Of a DNA stretch of 64,000 nt, positions 9,266-54,883 are shown piece after piece. A program made the translations under genes and the position numbers. The stretch lies in the IMG/VR virus record IMGVR_UViG_3300037504_000149; one strand, 5' to 3'. The notes under the pieces are model-generated. The model did no database searches, was not told the DNA's origin, and was given only the letters and a program-made list of their open reading frames with translations. Positions within the stretch are counted from its first letter, which is position 1, and every line of letters starts with the position of its first letter. Origin of the DNA: a virus. Taxonomy: Duplodnaviria > Caudoviricetes.

Positions 9266-9357
9266 GGAAGGGTTGACCCCAGTAGGTGCGGGAAGCAGTC
9301 TTGAAAACTGTTGATCGTTAACGCGATTTGTGGGTTCGAGTCCCACCCCTTCCGCCA
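9266..9357 (+). tRNA. tRNA-Ser(UGA)
   Basis: Cloverleaf, loop CTTGAAA, long variable arm, G73-CCA. Confidence 0.92.
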
Positions 9358-23764: not shown

Positions 23765-23831
23765 CTCAATTTGGCAGAGCAGCCGCCTTGTAAGCGGCAG
23801 GTTGAGGGTTCGAGGCCCTCCGATGGCCCCA
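23755..23831 (+). tRNA. tRNA-Thr(UGU)
   Basis: Cloverleaf, loop CTTGTAA, CCA. Confidence 0.92.
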
Positions 23832-23845
23832 TAATTTAATAGTTC

Positions 23846-23920
23846 GCGGGCGTCGTCCAATTGGTAGGATGGGAGGTTTCCACCCTCCTGATGCCGGTTC
23901 AAATCCGGTCGCCCGCTCCA
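23846..23920 (+). tRNA. tRNA-Gly(UCC)
   Basis: Cloverleaf, loop TTTCCAC, U73-CCA. Confidence 0.92.
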
Positions 23921-25729: not shown

Positions 25730-25803
25730 TGGGGAGTAGACTAGTGGCAGGTCAGGAGACTTTGAATCTTCAGGCGGTGGTTCGATCCCACCCTCCCCAG
25801 CCA
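25730..25803 (+). tRNA. tRNA-Gln(UUG)
   Basis: U1-A72, loop CTTTGAA, CCA. Confidence 0.92.
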
Positions 25804-25840
25804 ACATTCCAAGACATTAACGACCACACTATTTAACTAG

Positions 25841-25914
25841 TGGGGAGTAGTGCAATGGCAGCACGCTTGGCTCTGGACCAAGTAATGTAGGTTCAAGTCC
25901 TACCTCCCCAGCCA
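25841..25914 (+). tRNA. tRNA-Gln(CUG)
   Basis: U1-A72, loop CTCTGGA, CCA. Confidence 0.92.
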
Positions 25915-28283: not shown

Positions 28284-28359
28284 GCCCCTGTAGCTCAGAG
28301 GACAGAGCATCGGACTTCTAATCCGAGTGTCGAAGGTTCGATTCCTTCCAGGGGTGCCA
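28284..28359 (+). tRNA. tRNA-Arg(UCU)
   Basis: Cloverleaf, loop CTTCTAA, CCA. Confidence 0.93.
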
Positions 28360-28360
28360 T

Positions 28361-28437
28361 CCCCCAGTAACTCAGTAGGATAGAGTAACGGTTTCCTAAA
28401 CCGTAAGTCGCAGGTTCGATTCCTGCTTGGGGGACCA
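28361..28437 (+). tRNA. tRNA-Arg(CCU)
   Basis: Cloverleaf, loop TTCCTAA, CCA. Confidence 0.92.
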
Positions 28438-36451: not shown

Positions 36452-38170
36452 ATGTCTAGATTTAACAAAACAAAGAAGGATGTAGCCAAGACTAGAAACC
36501 ATGAAGGCGCAGTAGCTTATAACTTTCTTGATCCTAAGCTAAAGTTTATAAATACTGCTGCTGGTATGGGTTTCCTTTCTAGGGGTTTTTACCAAAGCGA
36601 GAAAGAACAATTAGATACATTGCTAGAGATGGTACGCGAAAACCCTGAGTTTGCCGCTACTGTTGCAGCGCATCTTCGTAACGATCACAATTACCGTACT
36701 GTACCTTTAATCATTTTAGCTGCGTTAACAAAAACACACAACGTAAGGAAGTTAGTGCCTTATGTTGTTAAACGCGCAGACGAGATGGCTGAAGTGTTAG
36801 CAATCTACAAGTATCTTTGGGGTAACGATACTTTGGCTAACTATACTAGTAAAGGATTATTAAAGGGCATCAAAGATGTAACTCACAACTTTGATCGTTA
36901 CCAATACGCTAAGTATAACAGAACTAAGGCTGAAGTTACATTACGCGATGTGTTGCGTTTAGTACATCCTCGTCCTAAAGATGAGGAACATGACGCAATC
37001 TTTGAAGAGATCATTAACGGAACACTTGCTGCTCCGCCTACGTGGGAAGTTATCCTTTCTGCGGCAGGTGAGAAGAGTAAAGAAGCTAAGTTAAAGGCTT
37101 TGACTCCACTAGTGGAGAGTATAAGCTCTCGTGGTAAATTACCTAGTGAGTGGCAAAACTTGCCAGCAACACTAACAGATGAGCCTATGACTAAGAGGGA
37201 TGCTTGGAACCTTATCTTATCATTAGGTAAGCGTTTCCCTTATATGGCTGCTCTACGTAACTTGCGTAACATCGTAGATGCGGGTGTTTCTGAAAACAGG
37301 ATCAAGGCATTAGCAGATAGACTAGCTGATCCTTGTCAAGTATCTCGCAGTAAGCAGCTACCTTTCCGGTATCTATCAGCAGCTAAAGCGCTGGTAGGTT
37401 ATGGTGGTTTTGATGGTGATACAGGCGCTTTTGATAGAATTAGCACAGATAGAGTGTCTGAAAGCACTATCAACTACGTCATTGCTAAGTTAGAGGATGC
37501 TGTACGGTTATCTGCGGATAACTTGCCTAAGTACGAGGGTTCTACTGTTATCGGTTGTGATGTTAGTGGTTCTATGGATACTCCTATCTCCCACCATAGC
37601 TCTATTAGGTTGTATGAGATAGGACTACTATTTGGTATACTTACATCTATCAGTAATCCCAACAATGCTGTTGGTGCTTTCGCTGAGTTAGCTGAGTTCT
37701 ACACGGCTGAAAACTTGAAGATGTTTGAAAACCATCCATTAAGAGCTGCTGCTAAAGCATATGATCAGATGGGGCATTTAGGTTACATGACTAATGGGCA
37801 TCTAGTGATTCACGCTTTACTAGATCTATACGAAAAGAAGCGTATAGGTACTGTAGATAGAGTGATTTTATTTACTGATATGCAGCTTTGGAATACGTCT
37901 AGGAGGTTCTCCTATGAAGATACCAAAGGACCACTACAGAAAGCATGGAATGCTTACAAAAAAGTGGCTCCTGACGCTAAGCTATACATCATCAACCTTG
38001 AAGGGTACACTACTTGTCCTGTCAATCCTGGGCGTGATGATGTAGTAAACTTCGCAGGATGGAGTGAAAACATACTCCGTTATATTGCCCAGTATGAAAA
38101 TTCTCGTGATGTCATCGACGAGATTTCTGCGAAGTATCCCTCTGAGAAATTAGTTTCTCGTTTAACTTGA
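36452..38170 (+). CDS. rsr: Ro60-related TROVE + vWA RNA-binding protein
   Basis: TRNHEG..AY, KRADEMAE, FDRYQYAKY, RDVLRLVHPRP, TWEV.LS, YMAALRNLRN, SKQLPFRY; vWA MIDAS DVSGSM, T, TDMQ. Confidence 0.95.
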   Translation: MSRFNKTKKDVAKTRNHEGAVAYNFLDPKLKFINTAAGMGFLSRGFYQSEKEQLDTLLEMVRENPEFAATVAAHLRNDHNYRTVPLIILAALTKTHNVRKLVPYVVKRADEMAEVLAIYKYLWGNDTLANYTSKGLLKGIKDVTHNFDRYQYAKYNRTKAEVTLRDVLRLVHPRPKDEEHDAIFEEIINGTLAAPPTWEVILSAAGEKSKEAKLKALTPLVESISSRGKLPSEWQNLPATLTDEPMTKRDAWNLILSLGKRFPYMAALRNLRNIVDAGVSENRIKALADRLADPCQVSRSKQLPFRYLSAAKALVGYGGFDGDTGAFDRISTDRVSESTINYVIAKLEDAVRLSADNLPKYEGSTVIGCDVSGSMDTPISHHSSIRLYEIGLLFGILTSISNPNNAVGAFAELAEFYTAENLKMFENHPLRAAAKAYDQMGHLGYMTNGHLVIHALLDLYEKKRIGTVDRVILFTDMQLWNTSRRFSYEDTKGPLQKAWNAYKKVAPDAKLYIINLEGYTTCPVNPGRDDVVNFAGWSENILRYIAQYENSRDVIDEISAKYPSEKLVSRLT

Positions 38171-38949: not shown

Positions 38950-38950
38950 A

Positions 38951-39093
38951 CCTTCCCATGCCTAATTGCGTGAGGCAAGCGAGGAATATAACACGCAAAG
39001 ATTAAAGTTGTGGCTAGGTAATATGTCGCCTTGAATAACTTTAATCACTTAAACACCAACGCTCATCGTGTTTAAGTTAAACTCCTCGCAAGG
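38951..39093 (+). ncRNA. putative pseudoknotted multi-stem ncRNA
   Basis: Five stems plus a 7-bp pseudoknot ttgcgtg/cacgcaa. Confidence 0.65.
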
Positions 39094-39098
39094 TTCTT

Positions 39099-39177
39099 AG
39101 TGGTAGCGTCGAAGGACGGAGTTACTTCGATTATAAAAGTCGGCACCCAAACTCTTTCCGCCTACTTACCTACCACT
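39099..39177 (+). ncRNA. Y RNA-like module 1 (short)
   Basis: Terminal stem agtggtag/ctaccact, GTCGAAG motif, GAGTTACTTCG, ACTTAC. Confidence 0.85.
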
Positions 39178-39181
39178 TTAT

Positions 39182-39333
39182 ATGAGAGCGTCGCAGTAAA
39201 GAGTTACTTCGCCTGCTAACTGGTAAGTTCTGGGTTCGAATCCCAGGGTGTACAACAAGTTTCACGAGACTTCGTACATCTAACTCAATGGTAGAGTAAC
39301 TAGAGAATCTCTTTACACCAACTTACCTCTCAT
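39182..39333 (+). ncRNA. yrlA: YrlA-type Y RNA with circularly permuted tRNA domain
   Basis: Stems atgagag/ctctcat and gtaaagag/ctctttac; T arm, acceptor, then D arm in permuted order. Confidence 0.92.
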
Positions 39334-39340
39334 TACCTAA

Positions 39341-39415
39341 ATGCGGACGCCGAAGTAGGGAGTTACTTCGTTTATTGGAAAACGCCTACTTCTCTCTACG
39401 CAACTTGCTTCGCAT
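39341..39415 (+). ncRNA. Y RNA-like module 3 (short)
   Basis: atgcgga/ttcgcat, GCCGAAG, gtagggag/ctctctac, GAGTTACTTCG, ACTTGC. Confidence 0.85.
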
Positions 39416-39419
39416 ACAC

Positions 39420-39487
39420 TGGCTATCGTCGATATGGATAGAGTTATAGTATTCCTCCAACACTAGACTCTTCCAATTACATAGCCA
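39420..39487 (+). ncRNA. Y RNA-like module 4 (divergent, CCTCC apical loop)
   Basis: tggctat/atagcca, CGTCGA, agagtt/gactct, ATTAC. Confidence 0.7.
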
Positions 39488-39494
39488 TCGAGTT

Positions 39495-39537
39495 AGGGTG
39501 AGGTAGACTTTCCTCCTTTCAACTACCTCACCCTCCA
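39495..39537 (+). ncRNA. perfect hairpin with anti-SD loop followed by CCA
   Basis: agggtgaggtag/ctacctcaccct, loop actttcctcctttcaa. Confidence 0.55.
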
Positions 39538-39541
39538 CTAC

Positions 39542-41353: not shown

Positions 41354-41438
41354 TGCTGAACTTCTCCTAACCTCCCCGTAGGGGTAGTGGGGATTATAAT
41401 TACTACCCCATTTAAAAGTTTGATTTTGTGTGTATTGT

Positions 41439-41524
41439 GTCGGAGTGTCGAAATGGAAGACGCGGAAGATTCAAAATCTTCTAAAGGTTACTTTATGAGG
41501 ATTCAAATCCCTCTTCCGGCATCA
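41439..41524 (+). pseudogene. degenerate copy of tRNA-Leu(CAA)
   Basis: Near-identical to 19210-19295, with D-stem and T-stem substitutions and ATCA instead of ACCA. Confidence 0.8.
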
Positions 41525-52007: not shown

Positions 52008-52095
52008 GGAAGTGTGTGCCGAATGGTAAGGCAGCGGACTGCTAATCCGTAGTCTCATACGAGACTTGCAGGTTCGACTCCTGTCACTTCCGCCA
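52008..52095 (+). tRNA. tRNA-Ser(GCU)
   Basis: Loop CTGCTAA, long variable arm, G73-CCA. Confidence 0.93.
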
Positions 52096-52132: not shown

Positions 52133-52540
52133 ATGTTACTTATATCAGGTAGTAGAGGTATTACTGATTATAAAATTATCACAGATGCTATGAATTATTG
52201 GTTACACGAGGGTAATACTATTCAGCATGGTATTGTGTTAGGTGGAGCTAAAGGAGTTGACACACTAGGTCAATTATACGCTGAAAAACATAATATAAAG
52301 CTTAAAGTTATTAAAGCTGATTGGGAAAACTATCCAATTAGTGCTGGTTACAATCGTAATCATGATTTATTAAAGTATACGGATAGTGCAGTAGTTGTTT
52401 GGGATGGTCAGAGCCGTGGAACAAGGCATATGATAAGTTTACTTACCAATCAACTTATACCAGAACTAGCTACACAGCATCGTTTTTTATTAAAAACAGT
52501 CCTTACAACTAGTTGTAACTTCACATGGTTAGATGTTTAG
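52133..52540 (+). CDS. SLOG-family (DUF2493-like) protein
   Basis: ISGSR, GGAKGVD, AGYNRN, WDGQSRGT. Confidence 0.88.
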   Translation: MLLISGSRGITDYKIITDAMNYWLHEGNTIQHGIVLGGAKGVDTLGQLYAEKHNIKLKVIKADWENYPISAGYNRNHDLLKYTDSAVVVWDGQSRGTRHMISLLTNQLIPELATQHRFLLKTVLTTSCNFTWLDV

Positions 52541-52553
52541 AACGGAGTGACTT

Positions 52554-53657
52554 ATGGGATTTTTAGCTGATGTATTTTCTACGGTTGGGGAATTTGTTGA
52601 AAAAATCTTCTCTAAACGAAATGTACCCTCAGACTATATTGCGAATCGTAAAAAGTACTTCCGTGAAGAGGAGTACTTTATGGACGATGTGGTGAGACTT
52701 AAGTTAAGTAAAGAGGCTCGTGATGGCCTAACCAAAGCTAGAAATTTACTGCGTAATATAGCTAGTGAAGAAGGCATGACACTAGGTAATAGTAATTTAG
52801 CTAAACGTACTTATACTCCAGGCAGTGAAATGCGTGAAGTTAACGGTGTAATGATGACTAGGGAAGATTTTGAAAAACAACAACGTGAGAAGAATGGTTC
52901 AGTAAATGCACTAGCTATACAACAAGAATTTAGTAAACATCCTATTATTAATTCCTTTCGCCATTTACTAGATGTAGTGAATACACTAGATGTAGTGCCT
53001 GCTAGTTTGTCTACAGATAGACAAAAACTTATAGCTTCCTTTATTGAGAAAATTTCTAAACAGTTAGGTACATTACCTCTACACTATCAGCGAACATCTA
53101 AGTTGTGGATTATGCTTGATAAGTTGCGTGAACAACGTGAACGTGCTTGTAGTAGAATTACTACTATAGGTAATAAAGACAAGTTTGAGCAAGTGCTTAG
53201 ACGACTTGATACTAACATTGAGAAAATAGAAAATAAAGCTGCACAGTTCGGGTATATTTTTGTAGCTAAAGCTAACAAGCTCCTAGATATTTGTGATAAG
53301 GTATCTATTAACATTGTCAAGATGGAGTTTGATGTAGCTACTACAAAGATTAGAGAAGAAACTGAAGTCTTACTTGAAGGACAAGATCTAGATTCTATGG
53401 AAGCAGATCTTGATATCCTCTCAGACGAAACGGACGCAATGCTGGATGCTGCACTTGAAGTTGATGAAGATACTGAGTGTGATTTTGCTAAGTTTAAGGA
53501 TGCTTATGAACGTAACTATAACTTACGGCAGCTATCTTCAAGTAACTCTACCTCCTCCGAAAATTCTGATGTTACACCAGACAATACTACTATAGACGAG
53601 AATGATTTAGTAGAGTCTGAGTGTGTTGATACTACGTTTGAGATTATTGACGAGTAG
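52554..53657 (+). CDS. coiled-coil hypothetical protein
   Basis: Amphipathic N-terminus, long helical heptads, acidic tail. Confidence 0.75.
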   Translation: MGFLADVFSTVGEFVEKIFSKRNVPSDYIANRKKYFREEEYFMDDVVRLKLSKEARDGLTKARNLLRNIASEEGMTLGNSNLAKRTYTPGSEMREVNGVMMTREDFEKQQREKNGSVNALAIQQEFSKHPIINSFRHLLDVVNTLDVVPASLSTDRQKLIASFIEKISKQLGTLPLHYQRTSKLWIMLDKLREQRERACSRITTIGNKDKFEQVLRRLDTNIEKIENKAAQFGYIFVAKANKLLDICDKVSINIVKMEFDVATTKIREETEVLLEGQDLDSMEADLDILSDETDAMLDAALEVDEDTECDFAKFKDAYERNYNLRQLSSSNSTSSENSDVTPDNTTIDENDLVESECVDTTFEIIDE

Positions 53658-53668
53658 AAAGGATACCT

Positions 53669-54883
53669 ATGTTTACTACTATTGATAAATATGATCTACC
53701 TATCCATATGTGGGTTGATCCTTCCACCCTGCTATCTGAAACTATCAAACAAGCTGCTAATGCTGCTAACCACCCCAGATCTGTAGGTGCAGTAGCTTTA
53801 ATGCCTGACACACATTGTGGTTATGGTGTTCCTATTGGGGCAGTTGTAGCTTATGAAGACGCAGTTGTACCTTATAATGTAGGGTCTGATGCTGGTTGTG
53901 GTATGGGGTATGTAGAAACTAACCTTCAAGTAGATCAAGTTTATGAAAAACTTCCTAATGGGAAAACGGTGTTAGAGGAAATCTATGCCATGATCCAAGA
54001 ACTTATCCCTGTAGGTTTTTCTAAGCACGATCACGCACAATATTGGCAAGGATTCTATAATGCGCCCAAACAGTCTAAAATCATCTCTAAGGAGCTTCCT
54101 AACGCGAAGAGGCAGTTAGGTACTCTTGGGGGAGGAAATCACTTTATAGAGCTTCAGAGGCGTTCTGACGGCAGGCTATGCATCATGCTCCACTCCGGTT
54201 CGCGACACCTTGGTAAAGCTCTTTGTGATTATTACAATAATCTTGCGAACGATCTTACTAGCTACCCACAGTTGAAAAAGCAGAAGCTTGCTTATTTAGA
54301 TGTACATTCAGATGCTGGAAAGGAATATCTTGCGGCTTTGACATTTGCTTTACGTTATGCTCACGAAAACCGTCAGCATATGATGGAAAACGTTAAAAAG
54401 AGTGTTTACGAAATATTCTTTAATAGATTAGGTATTGAGCCTAAATTTACAGATGAAGTAAATATACACCATAACTATACCTCTAAGGAACGTTGGTATG
54501 GTAAAGATGTGTGGGTACACCGTAAAGGCGCTATTTACGTACCTAAAGGTGCACGAGGAATTATACCTGGCTGTATGGGTACTGCTAGCTATATCGTTGA
54601 AGGATTAGGAAATAAGCTAAGTATGGATAGTGCATCTCATGGTGCTGGACGTACTATGGGCCGTGGTGCAGCTACTCGCAATCTCGATCCGAAAGAGCAG
54701 GAACGTAAAATGCAAGGCATTCTTTACCCTAGTTTTGTTAAGTCAAAGAAGAATGACAAAGTAAAGTATGATTTAGGTGAAGCTCCTGATAGCTATAAAG
54801 ACATTGAAGAAGTTATGGACAATCAGACCGATTTGGTAAAAATTGTCCATCGCTTAGAACCTATAGCTGTTCAAAAAGGTTAG
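53669..54883 (+). CDS. rtcB: RtcB RNA 2',3'-cyclic phosphate/5'-OH ligase
   Basis: MPDTHCGYGVPIG, DAGCG, GGGNHFIE, HSGSR, HHNY, HRKGA, SHGAGR, EAPDSYK. Confidence 0.96.
   Translation: MFTTIDKYDLPIHMWVDPSTLLSETIKQAANAANHPRSVGAVALMPDTHCGYGVPIGAVVAYEDAVVPYNVGSDAGCGMGYVETNLQVDQVYEKLPNGKTVLEEIYAMIQELIPVGFSKHDHAQYWQGFYNAPKQSKIISKELPNAKRQLGTLGGGNHFIELQRRSDGRLCIMLHSGSRHLGKALCDYYNNLANDLTSYPQLKKQKLAYLDVHSDAGKEYLAALTFALRYAHENRQHMMENVKKSVYEIFFNRLGIEPKFTDEVNIHHNYTSKERWYGKDVWVHRKGAIYVPKGARGIIPGCMGTASYIVEGLGNKLSMDSASHGAGRTMGRGAATRNLDPKEQERKMQGILYPSFVKSKKNDKVKYDLGEAPDSYKDIEEVMDNQTDLVKIVHRLEPIAVQKG

What the first reader, a model, noticed from the sequence alone, without database searches (positions are those of the whole stretch)
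39182..39333. YrlA module is a near-perfect circularly permuted tRNA built with tRNA-Ser(GCU)-like parts
Seen, in order: CTGCTAA (39213-19), ctggt, aagtt, T arm ctggg-TTCGAAT-cccag, ggtgtac, hairpin aagtttcacgagactt (39257-72), gtacatc, TA, D arm actc-aatggta-gagt, A, actag (pairs with ctggt). The 7-mer equals the anticodon loop of the phage's own tRNA-Ser(GCU) (52039-45). The hairpin capping the acceptor stem closely matches that tRNA's variable arm agtctcatacgagactt (52051-67). Inference: it may be a pre-opened Ser-anticodon decoy for anticodon nucleases or a SerRS-interacting mimic. Alternatively, joining 39303 to 39213 (an RtcB-type reaction) and trimming the cap would give a canonical GCU tRNA, as in permuted tRNA genes. 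The real tRNA-Ser(GCU) heads the apparent operon that ends in rtcB.
Basis: partly seen in the sequence, partly recalled or inferred. Interest (0 to 1): 0.82.

Follow-up and report, generated by a model that had tools for sequence, protein, structure and literature searches.

The report
Phage Y RNA with rotated tRNA
This is the tRNA-shaped partner RNA (a YrlA-type Y RNA) of a giant phage's Ro60 protein; its rotated-tRNA build is real but already known for this RNA class, and the proposed special link to serine tRNA is probably coincidence.

Summary
The anatomy is as described. Joining 39303 to 39213 gives a 75-nt sequence that ARAGORN calls a canonical class-I tRNA with anticodon GCU.

The element lies 1 kb downstream of a Ro60/TROVE gene on the same strand. 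It is the middle of three tandem Y modules that share the handle GAGTTACTTCG. A covariance model built only from distant relatives hits it at 77 bits (E 3e-15). It is a YrlA-type Y RNA.

That YrlA is a circularly permuted tRNA, that it might be processed to a tRNA, and that it might compete with an anticodon nuclease are all already in print (PMC4201824; 10.1101/312249; PMC7790460).

One thing is new here. The heptamer is homologous to the loop of an anticodon-arm-like hairpin found across 94 relatives. The chain break falls at 26|27, 43|44 or, as predicted here, 31|32. The loop keeps the form C/U-U-NNN-A-A while the triplet varies freely.

The serine link is weak:
- Identity of the 7-mer to one of the phage's own tRNA loops has 13-22% odds.
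- The body is least like tRNA-Ser.
- The variable loop is class I.
- Only the cap's 9-mer match is unusual (0.3-5%).

Close relatives could not be fetched. The scan has noted related tRNA/Y-RNA chimeras beside Ro60 in other phages.

The parts
36452..38170 (+). Ro60/Rsr-like gene (TROVE plus a vWA-like C-terminal domain), the presumed protein partner
   Evidence: Pfam TROVE E 3e-17. PHROG 850 RNA-binding protein E 3e-51. 34-36% identical to Bacteroidota TROVE proteins.
39097..39177 (+). Y module 1, short and without a tRNA domain. Carries GTCGAAG and the handle GAGTTACTTCG.
   Evidence: Repeat family D1/D2. Motif scan finds 3 copies against 0.78 expected.
39182..39333 (+). YrlA-type Y RNA, whole module, closed by the terminal stem 39182-88 / 39327-33
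   Evidence: Rfam RF02553 27.4 bits, E 0.0015, below the gathering score of 69. Own model R1, built from relatives only, gives 77.1 bits, E 3e-15, at 39179-39319. Fold.
39190..39211 (+). Ro60-docking side. GTCGCAG is a one-off variant of GNCGAAN0-1G. It is followed by the stem strand GUAAAGAG, which pairs with 39309-16, and by the invariant handle GAGTTACTTCG (39201-11), which contains the YUAY of Chen et al.
   Evidence: motif definitions from PMC4201824.
39213..39219 (+). Heptamer CTGCTAA. It is shaped like an anticodon loop (C32 U33 GCU A37 A38) and is joined only on its 3' side to the anticodon-stem strand.
   Evidence: Aligned by R1 to the 7-nt loop of the relatives' hairpin. Family loop signature. 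Identical to 52039-45.
39220..39229 (+). Anticodon-stem 3' strand ctggt (39220-24) and 5-nt class-I variable loop aagtt (G46, U48)
   Evidence: The 5/5 pairing with 39299-303 is predicted only: chance is about 1.5% per element, and the family shows no enrichment.
39230..39246 (+). T arm ctggg-TTCGAAT-cccag
   Evidence: The stem covaries in relatives, 98.8% paired.
39247..39280 (+). Closed acceptor arm. The 7-bp stem is ggtgtac / gtacatc. Then come discriminator A39254 and ACA in place of CCA, then a 19-nt cap with hairpin 39257-72. The predicted RNase P site is 39273|39274.
   Evidence: The acceptor stem covaries in relatives at all 7 pairs. The RNase P inference comes from M. smegmatis YrlA (PMC4201824).
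39281..39303 (+). U8 A9, D arm actc-aatggta-gagt, A26, and anticodon-stem 5' strand actag
   Evidence: The D stem covaries in relatives, 99.2% paired.
39338..39415 (+). Y module 3, short. Carries GCCGAAG and the handle GAGTTACTTCG.
   Evidence: weak R1 match.
52008..52095 (+). The phage's own class-II tRNA-Ser(GCU), used as the comparison partner. Loop CTGCTAA is at 52039-45 and the variable arm at 52051-67.
   Evidence: ARAGORN and Rfam; sequence.
53669..54883 (+). RtcB RNA ligase gene, 14 kb downstream on the same strand (context only)
   Evidence: Pfam RtcB E 4e-98.

Best explanation
The element is the YrlA-type member of a tandem array of three Y RNAs that partner the phage's own Ro60 protein.

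One end of the RNA is the docking module for Ro60. It consists of the terminal stems, a GNCGAAG-like motif and the invariant handle GAGUUACUUCG.

The other end is a complete tRNA fold wired in rotated order: anticodon-loop heptamer, anticodon-stem 3' strand, variable loop, T arm, loop-closed 7-bp acceptor stem, D arm, anticodon-stem 5' strand.

By analogy with studied YrlA and Yrn1 RNPs, the tRNA-shaped end serves as the handle by which a tRNA-binding effector is tethered to Ro60. Candidates include an exoribonuclease such as PNPase, RNase P, the CCA enzyme, or modification enzymes. The RNP would act in RNA surveillance or tRNA upkeep during infection.

Because the acceptor stem has the full 7 bp, RNase P probably cuts at 39273|39274. 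This would yield a two-piece RNA with a tRNA-like 3' end, as in Mycobacterium smegmatis.

The heptamer is the counterpart of the loop of an anticodon-arm-like hairpin that most relatives carry. Its GCU triplet has no special meaning.

Shown: the anatomy, family membership, linkage to Ro60, and covariation of the T, acceptor and D stems in relatives.
Inferred: Ro60 binding, the effector, RNase P cutting, and the trans anticodon stem.
For: - A Ro60/TROVE gene lies 1 kb upstream on the same strand.
- Three tandem modules share the handle, 3 copies against 0.78 expected.
- Rfam YrlA is the only RNA family matching the element, at E 0.0015.
- Model R1, built from 33 distant relatives and excluding the window, hits 39179-39319 full length at 77.1 bits, E 3e-15.
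- In those relatives the T, acceptor and D stems are 96-99% paired, with double changes at 14 of their 16 pairs.
- 51 of 91 related loci hold a Ro60 gene in the stretch fetched.
- The un-permuted join is a canonical tRNA by ARAGORN.
- The heptamer aligns to the relatives' hairpin loop. That loop keeps C/U-U-NNN-A-A with free triplets in 26 hairpin-before-T-arm (cis) and 16 arm-after-D-arm (type B) elements.
- Literature: YrlA is a tRNA mimic with T, closed-acceptor, D order, and the 7-bp-stem YrlA of M. smegmatis is cut by RNase P and receives CCA (PMC4201824). The crystal structure shows the tRNA fold (10.1101/312249).
Against: - The Rfam score of 27.4 is far below the gathering score of 69.
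- The GNCGAAG motif of this module has one substitution (GTCGCAG).
- There are no expression, binding or processing data.
- The trans anticodon stem is not favoured by nearest-neighbour energies: -38.1 against -41.4 kcal/mol for a shifted local hairpin.
- Perfect trans pairing is no commoner in the family than chance, 2 of 56 against about 0.8 expected.
- The effector of any YrlA is still unknown.
- The joint coincidence of heptamer plus cap 9-mer with one tRNA (roughly 1e-3 to 1e-2, post hoc) is not explained by this reading.
Confidence: 0.8

Rival explanations
1. Same RNA, different fold. The heptamer is not a free 'pre-opened' loop. It sits in a closed local hairpin, as in most relatives. 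Here the register is shifted: ACUU-C-GCC pairs with GGU-AAGU, leaving an 8-nt loop UGCUAACU. On this reading the 5-bp pairing ctggt/actag is a chance complementarity.
For: - This hairpin is in the minimum-free-energy fold, 3.3 kcal/mol below the cloverleaf.
- 43 of 56 relatives with the same spacing form the hairpin with the handle's UUCGN.
- R1 aligns the window onto that hairpin.
- Trans 5/5 pairing in the family is at the chance level.
Against: - In the family register the window's hairpin has only 3 of 5 pairs.
- The shifted hairpin consumes the variable loop, losing G46 and the A15:U48 pair that the rest of the tRNA core keeps.
- The trans stem gives exactly canonical tRNA spacing.
- RNAfold ignores tertiary contacts.
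Confidence: 0.3
2. Anticodon-nuclease decoy or competitive inhibitor. The displayed GCU heptamer, and the anticodon-like loops of relatives, soak up or block a host tRNA-cutting defence nuclease. RtcB and the phage tRNA set repair or replace what is cut.
For: - The loop signature U33/A37/A38 is kept across the family while triplets vary, as expected if different nucleases are targeted.
- The RNAs sit in tRNA arrays: 63 of 91 loci hold at least one tRNA gene call. In the window, rtcB lies on the same strand.
- Competitive inhibition of an anticodon nuclease by YrlA has been suggested in print (PMC7790460).
- There is a weak trend for the triplet to match a co-resident tRNA, 12 against 8.6 expected, p 0.06.
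Against: - The same design occurs in bacterial chromosomes beside Ro60 (Roseivirga, a Clostridia MAG), so it is not a phage-specific counter-defence.
- Triplets look random with respect to tRNA class.
- In the window the loop is not closed by its own stem, whereas anticodon nucleases generally read the stem-loop.
- Salmonella YrlA works without any anticodon loop.
- No nuclease is known for tRNA-Ser(GCU) in this unknown host.
Confidence: 0.08
3. Real exchange with the Ser gene. The cap hairpin, and perhaps the heptamer, were copied from or converted by the phage's tRNA-Ser(GCU) gene. Both hairpins may be read by one factor.
For: - The exact 9-mer ACGAGACTT is present only at 39264 and 52059 in the 64 kb.
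- A match of 9 or more to this tRNA occurs in 0.3% of cap shuffles.
- The same tRNA also owns the identical heptamer.
- The 19-nt cap is unusually long for the family.
Against: - The comparison is post hoc. Against any tRNA the 9-mer odds are 4.7%.
- Across the whole 152-nt module, about one chance 9-mer match to some tRNA is expected (my arithmetic).
- The two hairpins differ in loop and in one stem position.
- The rest of the body is unlike tRNA-Ser.
- Other Ser(GCU) variable arms and other caps show no such link.
Confidence: 0.15
4. Permuted pre-tRNA. The RNA is cut at 39212|39213 and 39303|39304, the ends are joined by RtcB into a circle, and RNase P/Z open the cap to give a working tRNA with anticodon GCU.
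For: - The joined product is a canonical cloverleaf.
- The acceptor stem is 7 bp.
- rtcB is encoded by the phage.
- The possibility was raised for YrlA in general (10.1101/312249).
Against: - No bulge-helix-bulge or other known cleavage motif lies at the two sites (by eye).
- No splicing endonuclease is known in bacteria.
- A class-I body with GCU would not be charged by SerRS (established identity rules).
- The phage already has a normal tRNA-Ser(GCU).
- Relatives have breaks at other positions, and their triplets include ones with no natural tRNA, such as AUU and AAU.
Confidence: 0.03

Closest known systems
YrlA (Y RNA-like A; Rfam RF02553) of Salmonella Typhimurium, Mycobacterium smegmatis and mycobacteriophages (Chen et al. 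2014, PMC4201824; structure in Wang et al. 2018, 10.1101/312249)
   Same: - Encoded next to Ro60 on the same strand.
- Carries a GNCGAAG-type motif near the 5' end and a YUAY before the variable region.
- Has T arm, loop-closed acceptor stem and D arm in that order, with tRNA tertiary bases kept.
- Has a 7-bp acceptor stem, as in M. smegmatis, where RNase P cuts and CCA is added.
- Has short sister Y RNAs (YrlB-like) alongside.
   Different: - Scores only 27 bits on the Rfam model.
- Carries the handle GAGUUACUUCG, typical of Bacteroidota and many uncultured phages.
- Keeps an anticodon-loop-shaped heptamer, whereas Salmonella YrlA is stated to lack an anticodon loop.
- What Chen et al. call a 'less-conserved V stem-loop' reads here as an anticodon arm: 5-bp stem and 7-nt C/U-U-NNN-A-A loop, followed by a class-I variable loop.
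- The point where the chain enters the tRNA differs among relatives.
Circularly permuted tRNA genes of Cyanidioschyzon merolae and some other algae and archaea (Soma et al. 2007, as cited in 10.1101/312249)
   Same: The 3' half precedes the 5' half, the acceptor stem is closed by a loop, and the anticodon stem is formed by the two ends of the transcript.
   Different: Those precursors carry a bulge-helix-bulge motif, are cut by the splicing endonuclease, are circularised and become working tRNAs. Here no such motif is seen, the ends run into a Ro60-docking stem, and the product would have no matching synthetase.
Tandem (dimeric) tRNA transcripts, the proposed ancestor of YrlA (Sim and Wolin 2018, as cited in 10.1101/312249)
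   Same: After the YrlA itself, the next-best hits of the family model in this window are junctions of adjacent tRNA genes. Examples are 28310-28387 at 44.6 bits and 25755-25868 at 36.6 bits. The cap begins ACA where the phage's tRNA genes have CCA.
   Different: The outer halves of the two tRNAs are replaced by the Ro60-docking module.

Membership tests
YrlA-type Y RNA (Chen et al. 2014 criteria; Rfam RF02553) | Encoded within about 4 kb of a Ro60/TROVE gene, on the same strand | tested here: met
   Ro60 at 36452-38170(+), element at 39182-39333(+).
YrlA-type Y RNA (Chen et al. 2014 criteria; Rfam RF02553) | GNCGAAN0-1G motif near the 5' end | tested here: inconclusive
   This module has GTCGCAG, one substitution. 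The two sister modules have exact GTCGAAG and GCCGAAG.
YrlA-type Y RNA (Chen et al. 2014 criteria; Rfam RF02553) | T arm, closed acceptor-like stem-loop and D arm in that order, with conserved T and D loops | tested here: met
   Rfam alignment, ARAGORN on the un-permuted join, covariation in relatives.
YrlA-type Y RNA (Chen et al. 2014 criteria; Rfam RF02553) | Score at or above the Rfam gathering threshold (69 bits) | tested here: not met
   27.4 bits, E 0.0015. A model of the phage/Bacteroidota clade gives 77.1 bits.
YrlA-type Y RNA (Chen et al. 2014 criteria; Rfam RF02553) | Bound by Ro60/Rsr in vivo | not testable with these tools
   Needs immunoprecipitation.
Canonical tRNA gene | Contiguous cloverleaf in 5'-to-3' order with a free acceptor end | tested here: not met
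   Neither Rfam tRNA nor ARAGORN calls a tRNA at 39182-39333. It is recognised only after rotation. ACA stands where CCA would be.
tRNA-Ser (SerRS substrate or mimic) | Long class-II variable arm between the anticodon stem and the T stem | tested here: not met
   The variable loop is 5 nt, aagtt. The hairpin that resembles the Ser arm sits on the acceptor end. The body ranks Ser(GCU) 21st of 31.
Permuted tRNA gene (Cyanidioschyzon type) | Bulge-helix-bulge motif at the junction, to be cut and ligated | tested here: not met
   Between the anticodon stem and the next stem there are 16 unpaired nt on one strand and 5 on the other, with no 3-4-3 motif (judged by eye).
Permuted tRNA gene (Cyanidioschyzon type) | Mature, ligated tRNA detectable | not testable with these tools
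   Needs RNA-seq or RT-PCR across 39303-39213.

The most novel reading that the evidence does not exclude
Ro60-partner RNAs of many phages and Bacteroidota would not be just elbow mimics. They would be whole tRNAs, anticodon arm included, whose chain is opened at different places (26|27, 31|32, 43|44) to take the Ro60 handle. Selection would hold the anticodon-loop architecture while letting the triplet run free. That would mean the loop is read by something, such as an anticodon nuclease, a loop-modifying enzyme or RtcB-linked repair. In this phage, the GCU heptamer and the Ser-like cap would then be a matched pair tuned to tRNA-Ser(GCU).
Probability: 0.1. Interest if true: 0.8.

Novelty: new variant of a known kind. 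Interest (0 to 1): 0.42.

Why it matters
What the tRNA-like end of bacterial Y RNAs binds is still an open question. This phage RNA and its relatives show three things. Many YrlA-type RNAs keep a full anticodon-arm look-alike, not only the elbow. The loop's architecture is conserved while its triplet is not. The Ro60 handle can be spliced into the tRNA at different points. That narrows the candidate partners to proteins that see a whole tRNA. It also fits the published idea that these RNAs arose from tandem tRNA transcripts. On the practical side, it flags a source of false tRNA calls: ARAGORN called 31 'tRNAs' on such elements. The serine-specific story, which gave the finding its high first score, does not hold up on present evidence.

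Tried and rejected
1. Close relatives for the co-variation test. None of the relatives is in the GenBank phages, in viral contigs or in genome contigs. The decisive comparison could therefore not be made.

2. Is the YrlA body derived from tRNA-Ser(GCU)? No. That tRNA ranks 21st of 31 in similarity.

3. Do YrlA-like heptamers match a tRNA in the same locus more than chance? A first result looked significant (p 0.003). It was inflated by ARAGORN calling the Y elements themselves as tRNAs. After removing 31 such calls, p is 0.06. The apparent 83% identity to 'neighbouring tRNAs' was the same artefact.

4. ARAGORN on all rotations of 80 relatives was too permissive to place the break points. I replaced it with an explicit stem parser.

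5. Is the Ser variable-arm sequence a conserved identity element that the cap could mimic? No. 25 other tRNA-Ser(GCU) genes have unrelated arms.

6. Promoter and terminator scans around the Y array and around tRNA-Ser gave chance-level counts.

7. The first pattern, CGNAGNANNGAGTTACTTCG, gave a hit count I estimate to be near the chance level in viral contigs. Only L008, and a few other loci (L012, L015, L020) that the second pattern also recovered, were real.

Full report
**What is in the sequence**

From 39213 onward the + strand reads, in order:
- CTGCTAA
- ctggt
- aagtt
- T arm ctggg-TTCGAAT-cccag
- ggtgtac
- a 20-nt discriminator plus cap with hairpin 39257-72
- gtacatc
- TA
- D arm actc-aatggta-gagt
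- A
- actag

The strand ctggt pairs with actag, and ggtgtac pairs with gtacatc. I joined 39274-39303 to 39213-39254 and added CCA. ARAGORN calls the 75-nt product a canonical class-I tRNA with anticodon GCU, with 7/4/5/5-bp stems and 7-nt D, anticodon and T loops. The bases that hold a tRNA together are in place: U8, A14, A15:U48, G18G19, A21, G46, G53-T54-T55-C56, A58 and C61. In the natural order, neither Rfam's tRNA model nor ARAGORN calls a tRNA here.

**Context**

The window is part of a contig of about 230 kb with 31 tRNA genes in 64 kb. It has no DNA match, and no Ro60 match above 33% identity, in GenBank phages.
- 36452-38170 encodes a Ro60/TROVE protein.
- A PspA-like gene follows.
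- 38950-39540 is non-coding and strongly structured (z = -6.6).

Within that non-coding stretch lie three tandem modules. They share a 5' arm ending in GAGTTACTTCG and a common 3' arm. The middle module is the finding.

Rfam's YrlA model is the only RNA family that matches the element. Its 27.4 bits (E 0.0015) fall below the gathering score of 69. RtcB lies 14 kb downstream.

**Relatives**

The pattern GAGTTACTTCG-N(8-38)-GTTCGAAT finds 87 stretches in IMG/VR. The handle is also present beside Ro60 in Bacteroidota chromosomes and in a Clostridia MAG.

There are 183 distinct elements. Of these, 94 have a clean T arm, a closed acceptor stem of at least 6 bp and a D arm. 51 of 91 such loci hold a Ro60 gene in the stretch fetched.

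I aligned 33 of these elements, all distant from the window. The T, acceptor and D stems are 96-99% paired, with compensatory changes at 14 of their 16 pairs. A covariance model built from that alignment hits the window at 39179-39319, full length, at 77.1 bits and E 3e-15.

The element is therefore a member of a large Ro60-linked YrlA clade that the Rfam model covers poorly.

**What the heptamer is**

In relatives with the same spacing between handle and T loop, 43 of 56 form a hairpin. The handle's UUCGN pairs with NCGAG across a 7-nt loop, and a 4-5-nt variable loop of the AGGUC type follows. The pair next to the loop covaries: AU 11, CG 9, UA 6.

In 16 of 16 elements where the handle abuts the variable loop, a perfect 5-bp, 7-nt-loop arm sits after the D arm instead, in the canonical anticodon position.

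In both groups the loop reads C/U-U-NNN-A-A.
- Position 2 is T in 24 of 26 and in 16 of 16.
- Positions 6-7 are A in 81-94%.
- The middle triplet takes 15 values among the 26 and 10 values among the 16.
- Class-II anticodons (Ser, Leu, Tyr) occur at the random rate in these class-I bodies, 9 of 43 against 9.4 expected.

The model aligns the window's CUGCUAA to this loop.

Chen et al. [quoted passage not shown] Wang et al. (10.1101/312249) state that Salmonella YrlA lacks the anticodon loop. Reading this arm as an anticodon arm is my re-interpretation. It is secure for the type in which the arm follows the D arm. It is arguable for the type in which the arm precedes the T arm.

**Where the window differs**

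In the window, the strand after the loop is CUGGU, not NCGAG. It makes only 3 of 5 pairs with the handle but 5 of 5 with ACUAG after A26. This puts the chain break at 31|32 and leaves the heptamer attached on one side only.

This is a prediction and needs caution.
- Perfect trans pairing has about 1.5% odds per element and is not enriched in the family, 2 of 56.
- Nearest-neighbour folding prefers a shifted local hairpin by 3.3 kcal/mol.
- In favour of the trans stem are the exactly canonical spacing and the retained variable-loop bases.

**The serine link**

Identity of the 7-mer with the loop of the phage's tRNA-Ser(GCU) is exact. However, 17 of the 128 possible loops of this form are used by the phage's own tRNAs, so a match to one of them has 13-22% odds.

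The cap shares the 9-mer ACGAGACTT with the Ser variable arm. Cap shuffles reach 9 or more against any tRNA in 4.7% of trials and against this tRNA in 0.3%. The similarity of the other strands follows from both being hairpins.

Otherwise the body is unlike tRNA-Ser, which ranks 21st of 31. Other relatives with Ser-type triplets have short, unrelated caps. 25 other tRNA-Ser(GCU) genes have unrelated variable arms.

A family-wide test of whether the heptamer matches a co-resident tRNA gave p 0.06, once false tRNA calls on the Y elements themselves were removed.

SerRS recognises the long variable arm and the acceptor stem, not the anticodon (established knowledge). This RNA has a 5-nt variable loop. 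I rate the serine link as probably coincidence, with about 15% left for a real sequence exchange. The close relatives that could settle it were out of reach.

**How it most likely works**

The inference rests on the studied systems (PMC4201824; 10.1101/312249; PMC7790460).
- Ro60 docks on the stem that carries the GNCGAAG-type motif.
- The tRNA-shaped end recruits a tRNA-binding partner. The RNP then acts in RNA surveillance or tRNA upkeep during infection, alongside the phage's large tRNA set and RtcB.
- With a 7-bp acceptor stem, it should be an RNase P substrate like M. smegmatis YrlA, with a cut expected at 39273|39274.
- The cap starts ACA where all but one of the phage's tRNA genes have CCA.
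- The family model's next-best hits in the window are junctions of adjacent tRNA genes. Both of these points fit the published tandem-tRNA origin.

**Novelty and verdict**

Three ideas are already in print for YrlA:
- It is a permuted tRNA.
- It might be processed to a tRNA (10.1101/312249).
- It might inhibit an anticodon nuclease (PMC7790460).

I did not find two things in the papers I searched. One is the family-wide anticodon-arm signature. The other is the variable break point, of which this window is the 31|32 case.

Earlier notes of this scan describe other tRNA/Y-RNA wirings beside phage Ro60 in other genomes. One note places a CCA enzyme elsewhere in this genome. I did not test either.

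Verdict: a real and well-built YrlA-type Y RNA, a new variant of a known kind. The serine-decoy reading is unsupported.

Noticed in passing
window 39108-39129, 39190-39211, 39349-39370: In all three Y modules the Ro60-type motif CG(A/C)AG(UA) is complementary to the (UA)CUUCG end of the handle GAGUUACUUCG. In module 3 this gives an 8-bp hairpin with a 4-nt loop, which the terminator scan picked up. This local hairpin competes with the long-range GAG/CUC stem that appears to covary among relatives (by eye). It may be an alternative or docking conformation.
   Followed up: partly
L105:791-861, L173:3997-4064, L142:3102-3172 and 28 other calls: ARAGORN calls many YrlA-like elements as tRNAs, using the Ro60 handle as a false acceptor and D arm. 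It made 31 such calls in the fetched loci. This is a likely source of spurious tRNA annotations in phage genomes.
   Followed up: yes
L051, L052, L059, L060, L066, L084, L088, L120 (e.g. L051:4009-4180): This is a subclass in which the handle abuts the variable loop and a perfect anticodon arm follows the D arm, so the break is at 43|44. It holds 16 of 16 elements with short spacing, and 14 of the 16 have Ro60 nearby. The triplet CAU is the commonest, at 5.
   Followed up: partly
window 28310-28387, 25755-25868, 23782-23871: Junctions of adjacent tRNA genes score 36-45 bits on the YrlA-clade model. This illustrates directly how a tandem tRNA pair resembles the YrlA core.
   Followed up: partly
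window 41438-41523: A second tRNA-Leu(CAA) call has a low Rfam score (34.8 bits) and is the only tRNA in the window without an encoded CCA (CATC instead). It is possibly a decayed or atypical copy.
   Followed up: no
window 9266-9357: Rfam's best model for this gene is tRNA-Sec (51.1 bits against a threshold of 47), while ARAGORN calls tRNA-Ser(UGA). The anticodon loop CTTGAAA suggests Ser.
   Followed up: no
window 52133-53657: Between tRNA-Ser(GCU) and rtcB lie a YspA/SLOG-domain protein (Pfam E 4e-13; PHROG 289) and a 367-aa protein with no Pfam or PHROG match.
   Followed up: partly
L133:5556-6000 (Clostridia MAG), L008:3680-4200, L132:7585-8200: These are arrays of three or four tandem Y modules with the same handle. 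Several modules in one array carry different anticodon-like loops. In L133 the loops are CUUUUAA and AUGAUAA.
   Followed up: no
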